Of a stretch of 64,000 bases of DNA, positions 4,242 to 32,986 are shown piece by piece. The DNA is from a virus: positions 38,177 to 102,176 of the IMG/VR virus record IMGVR_UViG_3300009085_000022. One strand, written 5' to 3'. The number at the start of each line of letters is the position of its first letter. Position 1 is the first letter of the stretch. Made by a program: the position numbers and the translations under genes. The notes beneath the pieces were generated by a model. That model saw only the letters and a list, made by a program, of their open reading frames with translations, ran no database searches and had not been told where the DNA came from.

Positions 4242-6245
4242 TTAATGATTCCAAAATTTACAAATAACAGCTTCAGCTTTTAAAGGTATCACTTTACAAT
4301 AAACTTTACCTGCTTTAGCCATACAATTTTCTACTACTTCTTTTAATCGTTCTCCTAAGTTTTCTGGGCATTCTAATAAAATTTCATCGTGTATTACATT
4401 TACAAATTTTACTATATTTAATAAATTATTCTCCTTAATATATTTAAATATATAAATACAAGCTAATTTTGTTATTTCAGCACTGCTGCCTTGTATAGGG
4501 TAGTTCAATGCCATTCTACTTATATTACCTTGTAATTTAAAATATTTACTTACTAAAGGCTTTAATTCATTAGAAAATAATATAGATTCTTTTGCTTTTT
4601 CTTCACGATATTTTTCCCAAAATCCTGGATGATTTACTTTTCCTTCTAAATTTTTATATATATCAAAGTTATGTATAAAACATTTACTATGACTTATATT
4701 ATTAAATAAAATATAACCATCTCTTAGAGCCTGTTTAATAGTTTGTTTAAAATACTTATTTACATCAGGAAAAGCTTTAAAATAAGCCTCATAAATAGCT
4801 TGTCCCTCTTCTTTAGGTATATTTAGATTATCAGATATAGTAGAGCCATCTCCTCCATAGTTTATAGCAAAACCTGCTGATTTTGCAATCTGACGTTCTC
4901 TTTTATATTTAGCTTTAATTTCTTTAAGAGGCACATCATTTAAATAAGGATAAATTTTAGAGGCAATATAGCTATGCATATCACCTAATCCATTTTGATA
5001 AAATAATAATATATCAGGATCTAAAGTCCAGTTAGCAAATACTATTTGTTCTTGTCCACTATAATCTGCATCAATAAATATATTACCTGGTTCTGGAACA
5101 AAACAATCTCTTTCATATATTTTATCCTTTTCTCTTACTTCAGGTAATCTTGGAATATTTTGTAAATTAATAGTATCTTTATCTCCTTGCTTACCACCAG
5201 AAGACATTCTTCCAGTATCCATTATTTGAGTAAAAGACGTATGTATTCTATTTGTAACAGGATGAACCTTAGTTAATACCGTTTCACCATATTTTGCTAA
5301 AATAGTTTCATTTTTTTTATAATTTAAATATAATGGAACTATCGGATGATTATCTTTAACTTTTTCTAATACTCCAGAATCAACAGAATCTTTTAATTCT
5401 CCTGTTTTTTCATCATTTACTTGTATATTTAAACCTAAGTAAGTAAATAACTCAGCAACCTGTAAAGGAGACGACCAGTTTATTGATAGTCGTTTTTCAG
5501 AATTAAATAAATCTAATTGAGATTCAATATATCTTGTAATATTATTATCTATTATCCATTGATTTAATGAATATAAACTTTGTTGATATATTAATTGATT
5601 CTGTAATATCTTTTGTTTCCAAAGATTAACATCTAATTTAATACCGGAATATTCAATATACGTTAAAGCTTGAACAAATAAATTTTCTAAATTAATAGAA
5701 TTAAGTAAGTTATTATCATTTAGTCTTCTCCATTGAGATGCTTTTAAATCAGGTAAATATTGGACATCTTCTGCACAATAATTTATTACTTTATAAGAAA
5801 AGCCTTCTCTGAAGATTTTACCTCTAGTTGTTTTAGTTAAACTATAATTAAAATATTTTTTAACAACTGCTTCCAAACTTTTTCTAACAGTTTTATCTCC
5901 TTTAGATAATACACATTCGCCTAAATAAGTATCCCATATTTTTTCAGGATAAATTCCTACATGATATAAAAATTTTAAATCAAATTTAGCATTATGTATT
6001 AACAATTCTTTATTTAAAAGAATATCCTTTACTTCTTCTATGGGATGAATGGAGGCATCAACAACAAATTGATGCACTCCATTACCTAATTGATAGGATA
6101 TAAGTTTATCTATATAGGGGTCAAATCCAGTAGTTTCTGTATCAAATCCTATTTCATCTTTATGTTTAAAATACTCTATTAAATCCTTAATAGTAGCATT
6201 TTCTACTCCAATATGATTAACTTTTTGTCCAATAAAATATATCAT
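4242..6245 (-). CDS. polA: DNA polymerase family A with 3'-5' exonuclease domain
   Basis: DTETTG exo I, HNAKFD exo II, YCAED exo III; TGRMSS, NLQNIP, DYSGQE (motif A), KSAGFAINYG (motif B), IHDE (motif C). Confidence 0.96.
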   Translation of the reverse strand: MIYFIGQKVNHIGVENATIKDLIEYFKHKDEIGFDTETTGFDPYIDKLISYQLGNGVHQFVVDASIHPIEEVKDILLNKELLIHNAKFDLKFLYHVGIYPEKIWDTYLGECVLSKGDKTVRKSLEAVVKKYFNYSLTKTTRGKIFREGFSYKVINYCAEDVQYLPDLKASQWRRLNDNNLLNSINLENLFVQALTYIEYSGIKLDVNLWKQKILQNQLIYQQSLYSLNQWIIDNNITRYIESQLDLFNSEKRLSINWSSPLQVAELFTYLGLNIQVNDEKTGELKDSVDSGVLEKVKDNHPIVPLYLNYKKNETILAKYGETVLTKVHPVTNRIHTSFTQIMDTGRMSSGGKQGDKDTINLQNIPRLPEVREKDKIYERDCFVPEPGNIFIDADYSGQEQIVFANWTLDPDILLFYQNGLGDMHSYIASKIYPYLNDVPLKEIKAKYKRERQIAKSAGFAINYGGDGSTISDNLNIPKEEGQAIYEAYFKAFPDVNKYFKQTIKQALRDGYILFNNISHSKCFIHNFDIYKNLEGKVNHPGFWEKYREEKAKESILFSNELKPLVSKYFKLQGNISRMALNYPIQGSSAEITKLACIYIFKYIKENNLLNIVKFVNVIHDEILLECPENLGERLKEVVENCMAKAGKVYCKVIPLKAEAVICKFWNH

Positions 6246-30771: not shown

Positions 30772-31297
30772 CAGATCACTTTTACTTAACGAGCTAAACC
30801 TAGCACATGTAGTTTTTAAATTTGCAGTATGTGATCTTATACAGGACAGAACGTGATTACTTAAAAGGTAATTGTTTTTAAAATTGCTAAACTGTCCTTA
30901 TCAGAGTTGTTTGTTTTCAATCTAATGCTCTACCAACTGAGCTATCTACCATCTTTAAGGTAGAACTGGAATCGAACCAGTGACCCATAGAACCTTGAGG
31001 ATTATTTTTAATTTGCTGAACAACTCTTATCAGGTGTCGGTTATTACTGTTTCAAAACCAAAATTTGAGAGTATATAATTTTTAATTTGCTGATGACACC
31101 TTATAACAGAATACGACTTTTTTTCTTTTAGCAGAAGAATTTTAAATTGCTGAATGTATTCTTAAAATTATGGAGATTTCTTTAAAGTTTTTGATATATA
31201 CACCATTTTACAGGTGGAAAGTATATACACCTCTTTCAATAAAGAAATTCTCCAATTTTTACATATATTTAGTATATATGTTGCTGATATCCACCTA
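30772..31297 (-). ncRNA. Tandem array of six Y-RNA-like units, four with tRNA-derived cargo
   Basis: Units 31211-31297, 31107-31163, 31031-31102, 30902-31028, 30842-30899, 30772-30838; each (A/T)AG-stem-(C/T)(A/T)GCAA ... stem'-CTG with compensatory changes. Confidence 0.8.
30914..30991 (-). ncRNA. Circularly permuted tRNA-Phe(GAA)-like domain (YrlA-like) inside array unit 4
   Basis: T arm ACTGG-TTCGATT-CCAGT precedes the D arm GCTC-AGTTGGTA-GAGC; acceptor TCTACC/GGTAGA closed by an 8-nt loop. Confidence 0.8.
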
Positions 31298-31301
31298 TTT
31301 A

Positions 31302-32978
31302 TTATATTGTTATCATTTGAATTATTTCCTGATCTAAAGCAGCATTAAATAATTCATCTGCTGTACTAGGAATTTTTGCAGATTTACCTTCTGTACCTAA
31401 TAAGAAAGTAATAACTGAACCATCAAATCCACTAAAATAAAATACATTCTTTGCCGGACCATAAGTTTCAAATTTAACTTTCTGATTACGTCCATAAAAC
31501 TCATTTCTTATATCCCAAAATACGAATTTGAAATCTTCAACAAATTTAGGAGATAATCCAGCAAACAATAAACGATGTTTAAATGCTTTTATATTAGTAG
31601 TATCATACATTTTAGTACGATCAAATTCACCATCAGATATTAATATAATACCAGTAGGAAATTCAGATTCAGGAACTCCGCTTTCATAAACTTGTACAAA
31701 TAAGTTAGCTACAGCTTCAAAATTTGTATTAGCAGATTCAACTCTATTTTCTGTAATCCAATGGTCATAAAAATTAACACCCTGTATTTTTCTTAAATAA
31801 GCAGTGGTACTAAAATCTATATAATGATTATGAAACCATCCCTGTATAAGATTACCAAAAAATATAGATAATGATTTAGCTATATGATATGAACTCATAT
31901 TAGTTCCAATAGCTATACTATTCATACTACCTGAAGTATCTTTTACAACAATAAAATTAGCATTAACTTTACCAGCTTTTTCTAATAATTGTTTATACTG
32001 AGCATTAATAGTATCAATTTGATATTTTTTAATGTTCCCAACTATTTTACTAGCTAGTTCATATACATATCCTGTAAATTTAGCAACTGGTTTAGTACTG
32101 ATCCAAGTTTCGTACTTCGCTTCAAGACCATTATTTGCTAAAAACTTAGAAGATACTAATTGACTTAAAGCTCTACCATGAATAGTATTAAAATCAATTT
32201 CTAACATACGGCCCTGACTTATTAACTGTTGCCAGGAATGAGCCGTACCAGAAACTTTTAATTTCCTATATTTAACATAGTTATAATGCTTTTCATCAGG
32301 AGTTTTACCACCAAATAATAAACTACAAATATATTTTGCAATCATATTATCAGCCTGAGACTCAACTGTTGTACATTTAGAATGTGCTTTAATTTGAGGT
32401 AAATATTTCTTTATAAGATTATTAGTATTAGGATTTTCTAATCCTACTAATATTAATCTACCAAATTTATCCCAATTTAAAACTTTACCATTCCAACCAT
32501 GAAATATTAAATCATATTGTAACATTACAATTATATCTTTCCAAGAGCCTACAGATATAAATATATGTATATTTTTCCAGAAAGAATCTTCATGATTAAT
32601 AGCTATCCAAAGCATACGAAGAATGCCTTCATGCTTTAAACCGGCTCCTTTTTGTACTTCTTTAGTTTTCAAATTGTCAAACAATGATACAATACGGGTA
32701 ATCATTCTGATATAAATAGTAAACATAATAGTTACTAAAGGATTTAACCCCCATAGAATAGCCATATCTTTCTCAATCTCTAAGTATTTACGAGGCTCTT
32801 TATATCTACCAACCTGACCAAACTGATCTACAAATTCATTTCCTGTAGAATTAAATTTCATAGCATCATTGCCTGAACGCACTTTAGCTGATTTTCTCAT
32901 ACCAGCATTTAAAAATGAATTCTTATCTGATTTAACAGATGCTGTTCCTAATAAGGAAGATTTTTTACTTTCAAACAT
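31302..32978 (-). CDS. TROVE/DUF2828-like (Ro60-related) helical protein with C-terminal vWA domain
   Basis: Helical N-domain (STGNEFVDQF, GAGLK, GSWKD, KYLP); vWA MIDAS DTSGSM, NTNF, ILISDGEFD, FWD, SGFD. Confidence 0.75.
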   Translation of the reverse strand: MFESKKSSLLGTASVKSDKNSFLNAGMRKSAKVRSGNDAMKFNSTGNEFVDQFGQVGRYKEPRKYLEIEKDMAILWGLNPLVTIMFTIYIRMITRIVSLFDNLKTKEVQKGAGLKHEGILRMLWIAINHEDSFWKNIHIFISVGSWKDIIVMLQYDLIFHGWNGKVLNWDKFGRLILVGLENPNTNNLIKKYLPQIKAHSKCTTVESQADNMIAKYICSLLFGGKTPDEKHYNYVKYRKLKVSGTAHSWQQLISQGRMLEIDFNTIHGRALSQLVSSKFLANNGLEAKYETWISTKPVAKFTGYVYELASKIVGNIKKYQIDTINAQYKQLLEKAGKVNANFIVVKDTSGSMNSIAIGTNMSSYHIAKSLSIFFGNLIQGWFHNHYIDFSTTAYLRKIQGVNFYDHWITENRVESANTNFEAVANLFVQVYESGVPESEFPTGIILISDGEFDRTKMYDTTNIKAFKHRLLFAGLSPKFVEDFKFVFWDIRNEFYGRNQKVKFETYGPAKNVFYFSGFDGSVITFLLGTEGKSAKIPSTADELFNAALDQEIIQMITI

Positions 32979-32986
32979 CTTTTTAG

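What the first reader, a model, noticed from the sequence alone, without database searches (positions are those of the whole stretch)
30772..32978. Ro60/TROVE-like vWA gene followed by a six-unit array of Y-RNA-like RNAs with swappable cargo
Seen: 4 nt past the stop of the 558-aa vWA protein begins a co-oriented array of six units of 57-127 nt. Minus-strand scaffolds are TAGGTGGA-TATCAGCAA...TCCACCTG; AAGAATAC-ATTCAGCAA...GTATTCTG; AAGGTGTC-ATCAGCAA...GACACCTG; AAGAGTTG-TTCAGCAA...CAACTCTG; AAGGACAG-TTTAGCAA...CTGTCCTG; AAGATCAC-ATACTGCAA...GTGATCTG. The stem sequence differs in every unit yet always pairs. The flanking AG/CTG and the GCAA motif stay fixed, five of six units follow it with an A/T tract, and the interiors are unrelated. 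This looks like a conserved protein-binding handle with a variable payload. Known: bacterial Ro60 (TROVE+vWA) binds the terminal stem of adjacently encoded Y RNAs, and YrlA Y RNAs carry tRNA-like modules. Inference: a phage-encoded ribonucleoprotein system in which one Ro-like protein loads a panel of different tRNA-mimic RNAs cut from one precursor.
Basis: partly seen in the sequence, partly recalled or inferred. Interest (0 to 1): 0.93.

Follow-up and report, generated by a model that had tools for sequence, protein, structure and literature searches.

The report
Phage Ro60-like protein with tRNA-mimic RNAs
A complete crAss-like phage genome encodes a ring-shaped relative of the RNA-binding protein Ro60, followed by six small RNA genes that share one conserved "handle" and carry pieces of tRNA. 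I found no paper describing this protein-RNA pairing, and the handle closely resembles the unexplained Class I RNAs of social amoebae.

Summary
Observation confirmed. Four nt after the stop of the 558-aa gene (31302-32978, minus strand) lie six co-oriented units of 55-125 nt. Each has (A/U)AG, a 6-bp stem whose sequence differs per unit, 2-5 nt, [C/U][A/U]GCAA, variable cargo, the matching 3' arm and CUG[U/A].

The predicted protein fold is Ro60: Z 23.3 to Xenopus Ro60 over 411 residues, the ten best entries all Ro60, MIDAS site intact. By sequence it is DUF7788/DUF2828, not Pfam TROVE.

A covariance model of the handle found 138 matches in 80 homologous viral loci plus the window. All are on the gene's strand and 108 lie within 1.5 kb downstream. 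The stem is 99.3% paired, against 58% in shuffles.

Cargo is tRNA-like. Unit 4 is a circularly permuted tRNA body with the YrlA layout. Units 2, 3 and 5 carry anticodon stem-loops of Ser-GCU, Gln-UUG and Lys-UUU type. Across the family 26 of 106 short units carry such loops, against 1.5 expected.

The handle lacks the canonical Y-RNA GNCGAA site. It matches the Rfam Dictyostelium Class I model below threshold (37.3 bits, cut-off 41.5).

Binding, processing and function are untested. This scan has already noted the same system on other DNA (121 notes, at least 111 genomes). I found no published description.

The parts
31302..32978 (-). Gene for a 558-aa Ro60-like protein: N-terminal helical-repeat ring (about residues 29-335) plus C-terminal vWA domain with an intact MIDAS site (D347-x-S349-x-S351, T418, D449)
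   Evidence: Pfam DUF7788 at 3e-10 and weak DUF2828; PHROG 850 'RNA-binding protein' at 3.5e-27. AlphaFold2 pLDDT 84.8. Foldseek top hits are full-length Ro60 structures. VIA-align Z 23.3 to 1yvp_A over 411 residues. The MIDAS residues are invariant in alignment A1.
32936..32981 (-). Start of the gene shaped like a unit: AAG, then GAUGUU (which contains the start codon), then AGCAUC-UG 36 nt downstream. In this window the GCAA motif has decayed to GUAA.
   Evidence: Relatives have the full form, AAG-AUGUU[U/C]-AACAGCAAA ... ACAUC-UG. Model R1, trained without these sequences, finds it in 8 loci. The window copy is not found by R1 at E<=1 and does not form in the minimum-energy fold. I therefore treat this part as doubtful for this window.
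31211..31295 (-). Unit 1 (85 nt): UAG start, stem GGUGGA/UCCACC, UAUCAGCAA, two internal hairpins, CUGU end. A 49-nt spacer follows.
   Evidence: fold -20 kcal/mol, z -2.6. It is too long for model R1.
31107..31161 (-). Unit 2 (55 nt): stem GAAUAC. Cargo is an anticodon-type stem-loop at 31139-31123: UUCUU-CUGCUAA-AAGAA (Ser-GCU type).
   Evidence: R1 46.6 bits. Rfam Dicty_Class_I_RNA 37.3 bits, E 1.3e-4 and 7.6e-7 per genome. Stem-loop.
31031..31100 (-). Unit 3 (70 nt): stem GGUGUC. Cargo stem-loop at 31068-31052: UCAAA-UUUUGGU-UUUGA (Gln-UUG type).
   Evidence: R1 47.6 bits. RF01414 29.3 bits. The same stem-loop sits under different handle stems in L001 and L007.
30902..31026 (-). Unit 4 (125 nt): stem GAGUUG(UU). 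Cargo is a circularly permuted tRNA body (variable region, T arm, acceptor stem closed by an 8-nt loop, D arm, then an anticodon-type loop UUGAAAA leading into the 3' arm of the handle).
   Evidence: Rfam YrlA RF02553 at 35.9 bits, E 2.4e-5, over 30989-30920, model positions 23-88. The fold shows T, acceptor and D hairpins. The same layout recurs in most of the 46 distinct 100-145-nt units listed from related loci.
30842..30897 (-). Unit 5 (56 nt): stem GGACAG, motif UUUAGCAA. Cargo stem-loop at 30872-30856: AUUAC-CUUUUAA-GUAAU (Lys-UUU type).
   Evidence: R1 36.9 bits. The CUUUUAA loop recurs in 7 loci, with 6 different stem-loop stems and 7 different handle stems.
30772..30836 (-). Unit 6 (65 nt): stem GAUCAC, motif AUACUGCAA, cargo of unclear type. 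The next gene's start codon lies 30 nt downstream.
   Evidence: R1 42.5 bits. RF01414 22.9 bits. No terminator-like site between array and next gene.

Best explanation
This is a phage version of the Ro60/Y-RNA particle, built from a divergent protein family and a different RNA handle. The 558-aa DUF7788/DUF2828 protein folds as a Ro60-type ring with a vWA domain. Its gene and the six downstream units are most likely transcribed together, and the transcript is cut in the short A/U-rich linkers (consensus CUG-AUAA-G) into RNAs of 55-125 nt. Each RNA is closed by a 7-bp terminal helix next to a single-stranded (U)ACAGCAA motif and an A/U tract. I infer that the protein binds this handle, as Ro60 binds the terminal stem of Y RNAs. 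The variable part displays tRNA mimics: a permuted tRNA body (unit 4) and bare anticodon stem-loops of Ser-GCU, Gln-UUG and Lys-UUU type (units 2, 3, 5). The particles would then present tRNA look-alikes to host enzymes that act on tRNA. My preferred reading is that they act as decoys or tethers for anticodon nucleases, tRNA-modifying or tRNA-processing enzymes, or exonucleases such as PNPase. In close relatives the gene's own start region copies the handle, which suggests the protein represses its own translation. Shown here: fold, co-occurrence, strand and position bias, covariation, tRNA-like cargo. Inferred: binding, processing, function, autoregulation.
For: Fold: VIA-align Z 23.3, rmsd 4.1 A, 411 residues aligned to Xenopus Ro60 1yvp_A. 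The ten best entries are all Ro60, including Thermus phage phiLo Ro60. The next family is vWA-only at Z 9.6 (Foldseek). The MIDAS residues are invariant.
Linkage: R1 gives 138 matches at E<=0.01 in 80 homologous viral loci plus the window. None is on the opposite strand. 108 lie within 1.5 kb downstream of the gene, 12 lie further downstream, 12 lie upstream and 6 lie at the gene start. In 9 independent MAG contigs it gives 19 matches, all on the gene strand. Cultured phages also carry gene plus units: Leptolyngbya Lbo-JY46, E. coli SUSP1, Listeria WIL-1 and Cronobacter S13.
Reverse test: records found by the RNA motif alone and confirmed by R1 hold the gene in 14 of 33 cases, and in 4 of 4 records at least 90% complete. 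Motif hits not confirmed by R1 hold it in 0 of 14.
Structure: 99.3% of cells paired against 58.2% in shuffles and 32-47% with slid partners; all 6 pairs change on both sides. The test that does not presuppose pairing gives 149 against 11.7 expected.
Features not imposed by my detector: AA precedes the G in 150 of 190 units, and the commonest spacing is exactly 4 nt, in 41 cases.
Cargo: 26 of 106 short units have a 5-bp/7-nt hairpin with Y-U-NNN-R, against 1.5 expected. The Lys-type and Gln-type loops are kept while both stems covary. Long units have the YrlA layout. In phage S13 the handle is grafted, circularly permuted, into the anticodon position of normal-order tRNA bodies.
Precedent: Ro60 with neighbouring Y RNAs, including tRNA-like YrlA, occurs in bacteria and phages (PMC4201824). 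Phage phiLo Ro60 binds two phage Y-like RNAs and host PNPase (PMC12135203).
Against: The handle lacks the GNCGAA or CGAA site used by known Ro60 proteins, so Ro60 gives no precedent for how this handle would be bound. The protein does not match Pfam TROVE by sequence. This phage carries no RtcB and no Rnl2-type ligase, so the bacterial link to an RNA-repair operon is missing here. The covariation alignment was fitted to the model's structure, and the related loci are not independent samples. Units 1 and 6 have no recognisable tRNA-like cargo. The gene-start mimic has decayed in this window. In some phages (SUSP1) the units sit among ordinary tRNA genes, which also fits a role unrelated to the protein.
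Confidence: 0.75

Rival explanations
1. The handle is a processing or stability tag, read by a host RNase or some other protein, that lets the phage produce a set of small tRNA-fragment-like RNAs. The Ro60-like gene is only a neighbour in the phage's small-RNA and tRNA region and does not bind the units.
For: In E. coli phage SUSP1 the units are interleaved with ordinary tRNA genes, 12 nt from their ends. One unit in L012 encloses a normal-order tRNA-Tyr. tRNA and tmRNA genes often lie nearby. No binding has been shown.
Against: Units track the gene across very different phages (crAss-like, cyanophage, Ounavirinae, Herelleviridae, Straboviridae), with a strict strand and position bias. Every near-complete record with units has the gene, 4 of 4. 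In close relatives the gene's own start copies the handle, which is hard to explain unless the protein reads it.
Confidence: 0.12
2. The array works in cis as part of the mRNA, for example as a stabiliser, a ribosome or RNase barrier, or a regulator of the downstream genes, and is not cut into separate RNAs.
For: There is no terminator-like site between gene, array and next gene, and the next start codon is 30 nt after unit 6.
Against: Cargo modules (permuted tRNA bodies and anticodon loops that follow tRNA rules) are conserved while the stems covary. In some phages the arrays lie upstream of the gene or among tRNA genes. The conserved AAG and CUG(U/A) termini equal the mature ends mapped for Dictyostelium Class I RNAs (PMC7919456).
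Confidence: 0.06
3. The array is a type III toxin-antitoxin-like or CRISPR-like repeat array, in which the protein cuts a repetitive precursor and is neutralised or guided by the pieces.
For: A protein gene lies beside a tandem array of short structured RNA units with fixed junctions.
Against: The protein has a Ro60 ring plus vWA fold with no nuclease domain. Unit stems pair within units, not between them. Units are not sequence repeats. Cargo is tRNA-like rather than derived from targets.
Confidence: 0.02

Closest known systems
Bacterial and phage Ro60 (Rsr) with Y RNAs YrlA/YrlB (Rfam RF02553; Chen et al. 2014, PMC4201824)
   Same: A ring-plus-vWA protein is encoded next to, and on the same strand as, several small RNAs closed by a terminal stem. 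At least one RNA carries a permuted tRNA-like domain (T arm, closed acceptor stem, D arm). Unit 4 matches the YrlA model over positions 23-88, and a unit in L067 matches it end to end.
   Different: The protein belongs to DUF7788/DUF2828 and has no Pfam TROVE match. The handle is AAG-stem-(U)ACAGCAA ... stem-CUG rather than a bulged helix with GNCGAA. No unit reaches the YrlA cut-off of 69 bits. There are up to about ten units in tight tandem arrays, and many carry bare anticodon stem-loops. This phage has no rtcB.
Thermus phage phiLo Ro60 with Yrl1/Yrl2 and host PNPase (PMC12135203; PDB 9KOP, 9L5Y)
   Same: It is a phage-encoded Ro60-fold protein with phage-encoded partner RNAs next to its gene. 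Structural match Z 16.9 and 15.9 over 411-417 residues.
   Different: The phiLo RNAs number two, lie upstream, and carry the canonical CGAA bulge. Sequence identity to the window protein is 11-12%. PNPase binding is shown for phiLo and untested here.
Dictyostelium Class I RNAs (Rfam RF01414; Kjellin et al. 2021, PMC7919456)
   Same: Same build: AAG start, a short terminal stem of about 6 bp whose sequence varies but whose pairing is kept, a conserved motif ending in UACAGCAA directly after the 5' arm, an A/U-rich stretch, a variable interior, a CUGU end, and a length of about 55-65 nt. Three window units are the only RF01414 matches in the 102-kb genome at E<=1 (E 7.6e-7, 8e-5, 3.5e-3).
   Different: The best score, 37.3 bits, is below the cut-off of 41.5. 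The Class I RNAs are separate genes with a DUSE promoter in a eukaryote, and their known binder is the RRM protein Rnp1A. They are reported as unique to Dictyostelia. I could not test whether dictyostelids have a DUF2828 protein that binds them.
Pfam DUF2828 (PF11443) and DUF7788 (PF25043); PHROG 850 'RNA-binding protein'
   Same: The window protein is a member: DUF7788 at 40.1 bits (cut-off 27.1) and PHROG 850 at 3.5e-27. More than 1,600 relatives were found.
   Different: I found no paper that assigns a function: full-text searches for DUF2828, UCP015417 and the Pfam accessions returned only incidental mentions. This analysis supplies a fold and candidate RNA partners.

Membership tests
Ro60 / TROVE2 / Rsr protein family | Ring of helical (HEAT-like) repeats followed by a vWA domain | tested here: met
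   AlphaFold2 model with pLDDT 84.8. VIA-align Z 23.3 to 1yvp_A, residues 29-542 aligned to 12-537. The top ten entries are all Ro60.
Ro60 / TROVE2 / Rsr protein family | Sequence match to Pfam TROVE, or to a solved Ro60 by sequence | tested here: not met
   The Pfam scan at E<=1 lists only DUF7788, DUF2828 and a chance hit. phmmer against PDB sequences gives no hit at E<=10.
Ro60 / TROVE2 / Rsr protein family | MIDAS motif DxSxS...T...D in the vWA domain | tested here: met
   D347, S349, S351, T418 and D449 are present and invariant in 30 homologues.
Ro60 / TROVE2 / Rsr protein family | Binds the terminal stem of Y RNAs | not testable with these tools
   Only genomic linkage and covariation are available.
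YrlA Y RNA (RF02553) | tRNA-like domain: T arm, acceptor stem closed by a loop, D arm, joined through the anticodon-stem position to a terminal stem | tested here: met
   Unit 4 matches model positions 23-88 at 35.9 bits, E 2.4e-5.
YrlA Y RNA (RF02553) | Reaches Rfam's gathering score of 69 bits | tested here: not met
   35.9 bits in the window. The best in related loci is 42 bits. None appears at the gathering threshold.
YrlA Y RNA (RF02553) | GNCGAAN0-1G Ro60-binding motif near the 5' end (PMC4201824) | tested here: not met
   There is no GNCGAA anywhere in the array. The conserved motif is (U)ACAGCAA.
Dictyostelium Class I RNA (RF01414) | Short stem joining the 5' and 3' ends, with pairing conserved but not sequence | tested here: met
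Dictyostelium Class I RNA (RF01414) | 11-nt motif CCUUACAGCAA next to the 5' arm | tested here: inconclusive
   The family consensus shares UACAGCAA, 8 of the 11 positions. The window units have CAGCAA (four units), UAGCAA and CUGCAA.
Dictyostelium Class I RNA (RF01414) | AAG start and CUGU end | tested here: met
   AAG in 5 of 6 window units and CUGU in 4 of 6. AA precedes the G in 150 of 190 family units. The base after CUG is more often A than U across the family.
Dictyostelium Class I RNA (RF01414) | Reaches Rfam's gathering score of 41.5 bits | tested here: not met
   Best scores are 37.3, 29.3 and 22.9 bits. None of 20 related loci reaches the cut-off.
Dictyostelium Class I RNA (RF01414) | Separate genes, each with a DUSE promoter about 60 nt upstream, in dictyostelid genomes | tested here: not met
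   The units form a tandem array with 4-5-nt linkers in a phage genome.
DUF7788 / DUF2828 | Pfam match above the curated cut-off | tested here: met
   PF25043 at 40.1 bits against 27.1. PF11443 reaches only 12.6 against 29 in this protein, but many close homologues carry it.

The most novel reading that the evidence does not exclude
The phage handle and the Dictyostelium Class I RNAs are the same RNA class. On this reading, DUF2828/DUF7788 proteins, which Pfam also lists from eukaryotes (from my memory, not tested here), form a second, unrecognised branch of the Ro60/Y-RNA world spanning phages, giant viruses and eukaryotes. Class I RNAs would then be the Y-like partners of an amoebal DUF2828 protein rather than an invention tied to multicellularity. 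In phages the particles would display anticodon-loop and tRNA-body mimics to blunt tRNA-targeting host defences.
Probability: 0.3. Interest if true: 0.9.

Novelty: new variant of a known kind. Interest (0 to 1): 0.8.

Why it matters
It gives a fold and candidate RNA partners to a large protein family of unknown function. That family has more than 1,600 clusters in the search here and includes well-studied Listeria, Staphylococcus, Enterococcus, Bacillus and E. coli phages. It also defines an RNA family that is absent from Rfam and often mis-annotated as tiny ORFs or odd tRNAs.

It extends the Ro60/Y-RNA principle to a new handle and to multiplexed arrays that display anticodon loops and tRNA bodies. 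This bears on how phages deal with host enzymes and defences that act on tRNA.

It offers a testable lead for the Class I RNAs of social amoebae, whose molecular function is unknown.

Cultured systems exist in which the experiments can be done at once: phage SUSP1 on E. coli MG1655, P100-type Listeria phages, and Leptolyngbya phage Lbo-JY46.

Tried and rejected
- A search of viral contigs with the single protein found nothing. The 30-sequence alignment was needed.
- Rfam at gathering thresholds found no family for the units in 20 loci.
- Neighbouring ORFs within about 5 kb have no informative Pfam or PHROG match. They give no functional context.
- RtcB and Rnl2-type ligase are absent from the complete genome. 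The RNA-repair-operon reading of bacterial rsr loci therefore has no phage-encoded support here.
- A DUF7788 profile search of records missed known family members (G003 and G009, which alignment A1 recovered). Its counts are lower bounds.
- My first reverse test, using only the fetched stretches and an A1 profile, gave 11 of 119. It was uninformative because many motif hits are not units and many stretches are short. I replaced it with R1 confirmation plus whole-record searches.
- Literature searches found nothing that links DUF2828 to RNA, or Class I RNAs to Ro or TROVE. Avesson et al. 2011, which lists the four Class I-binding proteins, is not held.
- I could not test whether Dictyostelium encodes a DUF2828 protein, because no eukaryotic genome collection was available and the protein atlas returned only viral clusters.
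- The phage's own tRNA-Gln anticodon loop (UUUUGAA) differs from unit 3's loop (UUUUGGU), so the cargo is not a simple copy of that gene.
- I considered chance A/T-rich hairpins, REP-like elements, terminators, type III toxin-antitoxin arrays and CRISPR-like arrays. I rejected them on covariation, the conserved single-stranded motif, the protein fold and the cargo.
Full report
WHAT IS THERE

The window is part of a complete 102,176-bp virus record with direct terminal repeats. Its terminase, portal and major head protein fall in phage families. The head protein is 34-35% identical to those of crAss-like phages and Cellulophaga phage phi14:2. This is therefore a crAss-like tailed phage, probably of a Bacteroidota host.

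On the minus strand a 558-aa ORF (31302-32978) is followed, 4 nt after its stop, by six co-oriented units:
- 31295-31211 (85 nt)
- 31161-31107 (55 nt)
- 31100-31031 (70 nt)
- 31026-30902 (125 nt)
- 30897-30842 (56 nt)
- 30836-30772 (65 nt)

Each unit reads (A/U)AG, a 6-nt 5' arm, 2-5 nt, [C/U][A/U]GCAA, an A/U tract in five of six, a variable interior, the complementary 3' arm, and CUG[U/A]. All six stems differ and all pair perfectly. In the minimum-energy fold every unit closes with a 7-bp terminal helix, because the A before the G also pairs with the U of CUG.

THE PROTEIN

By sequence the protein is DUF7788 (3e-10) with a weak DUF2828 match, and PHROG 850 'RNA-binding protein'. It has no Pfam TROVE match and no sequence hit to any solved structure.

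An AlphaFold2 model built from 30 homologues has pLDDT 84.8. Foldseek puts full-length Ro60 structures first. VIA-align gives Z 23.3 (rmsd 4.1 A, 411 residues, model 29-542 against chain 12-537) to Xenopus Ro60 bound to RNA. The ten best entries are all Ro60, including human Ro60, Deinococcus Rsr and Thermus phage phiLo Ro60. The next family aligns to the vWA domain only, at Z 9.6.

The vWA metal site (D347-x-S349-x-S351, T418, D449) is present and invariant. The first ~30 residues are modelled with low confidence.

IS THE ARRAY LINKED TO THE GENE?

The protein family is large, with more than 1,600 clusters. In 80 viral contigs that carry a homologue, a simple detector found 203 units on the gene's strand and 28 on the other.

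I ran a test that does not presuppose pairing. Of 549 sequence-only anchors on the gene strand, 149 have the matching 3' arm followed by UG within 260 nt, against 11.7 expected when the stem is shuffled. On the opposite strand the figures are 8 of 223 against 4.4.

Several features that I did not impose are conserved:
- AA precedes the G in 150 of 190 units.
- The commonest spacing between units is exactly 4 nt (41 cases), giving the junction CUG-AUAA-G.
- Lengths are bimodal, 50-69 nt and 110-139 nt.

A covariance model of the handle (R1), built from 51 short units, found 138 matches at E<=0.01 in these 80 loci plus the window. None is on the opposite strand. By position, 108 lie within 1.5 kb downstream of the gene, 12 further downstream, 12 upstream and 6 at the gene start.

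On the model-fitted alignment 99.3% of cells pair, against 58.2% in shuffles and 32-47% when partners are slid. All six pairs change on both sides. That alignment leans towards the structure, which is why matters.

Nine independent contigs from MAGs gave 19 further matches, all on the gene strand. In the complete phage genome R1 finds units only at this locus.

I also ran the reverse test. A scan of viral contigs for the 5' half of the handle alone gave 119 stretches. R1 was run on the first 100 of them, and 47 of their records were searched for the gene. Records whose hit R1 confirmed hold the gene in 14 of 33 cases, and the 19 without it are all fragments of at most 32% estimated completeness. 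Of records at least 90% complete, 4 of 4 hold it. Records with unconfirmed hits hold it in 0 of 14.

Cultured phages carry the pair too:
- Leptolyngbya phage Lbo-JY46: five units directly after the gene.
- Escherichia phage SUSP1: four units among the tRNA genes downstream.
- Listeria phage WIL-1: three units upstream, lying under tiny annotated ORFs.
- Cronobacter phage S13.

THE CARGO

Unit 4 matches the tRNA-like core of Rfam YrlA (35.9 bits, E 2.4e-5). It folds into a T arm, an acceptor stem closed by a loop, and a D arm. This is a circularly permuted tRNA body that opens next to an anticodon-type loop, UUGAAAA. Most of the 46 distinct 100-145-nt units listed from related loci have the same layout.

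I tested this across the family. Of 106 short units, 26 have a 5-bp stem and 7-nt loop with pyrimidine-U-NNN-purine, against 1.5 expected from shuffled interiors.

Window units 2, 3 and 5 carry CUGCUAA, UUUUGGU and CUUUUAA. The Lys-type loop CUUUUAA recurs in seven loci, with six different loop-closing stems and seven different handle stems. The Gln-type stem-loop is identical in the window, L001 and L007 while the handles differ. The cargo is therefore under selection.

The loops also follow tRNA rules. Anticodons ending in U are followed by AA, and those ending in G by GU. In real bacterial tRNAs these combinations are the determinants for t6A37 and m1G37. That last statement rests on established knowledge, not on a test here.

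In Cronobacter phage S13, two features annotated as 113-nt and 121-nt 'tRNAs' are normal-order tRNA bodies. Their anticodon arm is replaced by a circularly permuted handle...CAAACUG-AC-AAGUUUG-UAUUCAGCA.... The same three-dimensional object, a tRNA body joined to the handle at the anticodon end, is thus built in two chain topologies.

Units 1 and 6 of the window have no cargo that I can classify.

RELATION TO KNOWN RNAs

The handle is not the canonical Ro60 site. There is no GNCGAA in the array, and no unit reaches the YrlA cut-off.

The best Rfam match for the short units is the Dictyostelium Class I RNA model. Scores are 37.3, 29.3 and 22.9 bits against a cut-off of 41.5, and these are the only three matches in the whole genome at E<=1.

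Kjellin et al. (PMC7919456) describe Class I RNAs as follows:
- 42-65 nt long.
- A short terminal stem whose pairing, but not sequence, is conserved.
- An 11-nt motif, CCUUACAGCAA, beside the 5' arm.
- A variable interior.
- An AAG start and a CUGU end.
- Reported as unique to dictyostelids.
- The one direct binder known is the RRM protein Rnp1A.

The phage consensus is AAG-N5-N-UACAGCAA-AUU-AAAAA ... CUG-A/U, which shares all of these hallmarks. It fails the score cut-off and lacks the promoter and genomic setting. It therefore works like a Class I RNA but is not a member by Rfam's criterion.

A HANDLE COPY AT THE GENE START

In many close relatives the mRNA start reads AAG-AUGUU[U/C]-AACAGCAAA ... 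ACAUC-UG. This has the full build of a unit, with the start codon inside the 5' arm.

Sixteen loci of those examined have both arms. R1, which was trained without these sequences, detects eight of them: six and two.

The 3' arm floats 33-66 nt from the start within the poorly modelled N-terminus. Its codons vary between Thr, Ala and Ile only through changes that keep pairing or give G-U.

This suggests that the protein binds its own message over the start codon.

In this window the copy has decayed (GUAA instead of GCAA). R1 does not find it, and it does not form in the minimum-energy fold. I therefore list it as doubtful here.

HOW IT MOST LIKELY WORKS

Shown:
- Ro60 fold.
- Strict genomic linkage.
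- Covarying handle.
- tRNA-mimic cargo under selection.
- Junctions too short for separate promoters.
- No terminator-like site between gene, array and next gene.

Inferred:
- Co-transcription and cutting in the AUAA linkers.
- Binding of the handle by the ring protein.
- Display of tRNA look-alikes to host enzymes that act on tRNA.

The phiLo precedent shows that a phage Ro60 with its RNAs can capture host PNPase (PMC12135203). The bacterial precedent ties Ro60 and YrlA to the response to tRNA damage (PMC4201824).

This phage has no RtcB or Rnl2-type ligase, so for this phage I favour a decoy or tether role over a repair platform. My odds are about 0.75 that the units are the protein's partner RNAs, and about 0.3 that the specific role is to counter tRNA-targeting defences.

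PRIOR NOTES AND NOVELTY

This scan has already recorded the same system many times on other DNA: 121 notes in at least 111 genomes, covering phages and giant viruses, and several mention the Class I likeness. I reached the Rfam result independently and tested the ideas that I reuse.

In the literature I could search I found nothing on DUF2828 function, on these RNAs, or on a link between Class I RNAs and Ro or TROVE.

Measured against what is published, this is a new variant of the Ro60/Y-RNA kind: a new protein branch, a new handle, and multiplexed arrays with anticodon-loop cargo.

Noticed in passing
L084 4824-4944 and 4954-5066 (Cronobacter phage S13, NC_028773): Two GenBank 'tRNA' features of 121 and 113 nt are normal-order tRNA bodies whose anticodon arm is replaced by a circularly permuted copy of the handle. 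A standard-topology long unit follows at 5083-5217.
   Followed up: partly
L082 4361-5186 (Escherichia phage SUSP1, NC_028808) and L083 2378-2639 (Listeria phage WIL-1): Units are interleaved with tRNA genes in SUSP1. They lie under short annotated 'hypothetical protein' CDSs in both phages (for example AVU07_agp138), and those CDSs are probably spurious. WIL-1 has an RtcB-type ligase 1.3 kb downstream of the Ro-like gene.
   Followed up: partly
L001 5317-5659, L004 5422-5781, L016 5306-5708: Phage-encoded tmRNA genes lie about 1 kb downstream of the arrays in three related loci, on the same strand.
   Followed up: no
L010 4205-4370: A ~165-nt region with a 12-bp closing helix lies between the gene's stop and the array. 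It gives a weak match to the Rfam freshwater-1 RNA (31 bits, cut-off 72).
   Followed up: no
L003 4545-4659, L004 5022-5133, L006 4424-4538, L007 4643-4754, L066 4997-5106, L074 4247-4359: There is a second class of long units (~110-115 nt), with a T arm followed by a conserved GGCACUUGGUGUGGAAUAUC-like element instead of a normal D arm. It is absent from the window.
   Followed up: no
L012 2936-3051: A normal-order tRNA-Tyr (Rfam 53 bits; also called by ARAGORN) is enclosed within one handle. If RNase P and RNase Z cut it out, the two handle halves would separate.
   Followed up: no
window 31162-31210 (minus strand): A 49-nt spacer lies between units 1 and 2, where other linkers are 4-5 nt. 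It repeats GGUGUAUAUA from the end of unit 1 and may be the remnant of a decayed unit.
   Followed up: no
L074 5040-5255: A group I intron (Rfam 91.9 bits) lies just downstream of the array in a related phage.
   Followed up: no
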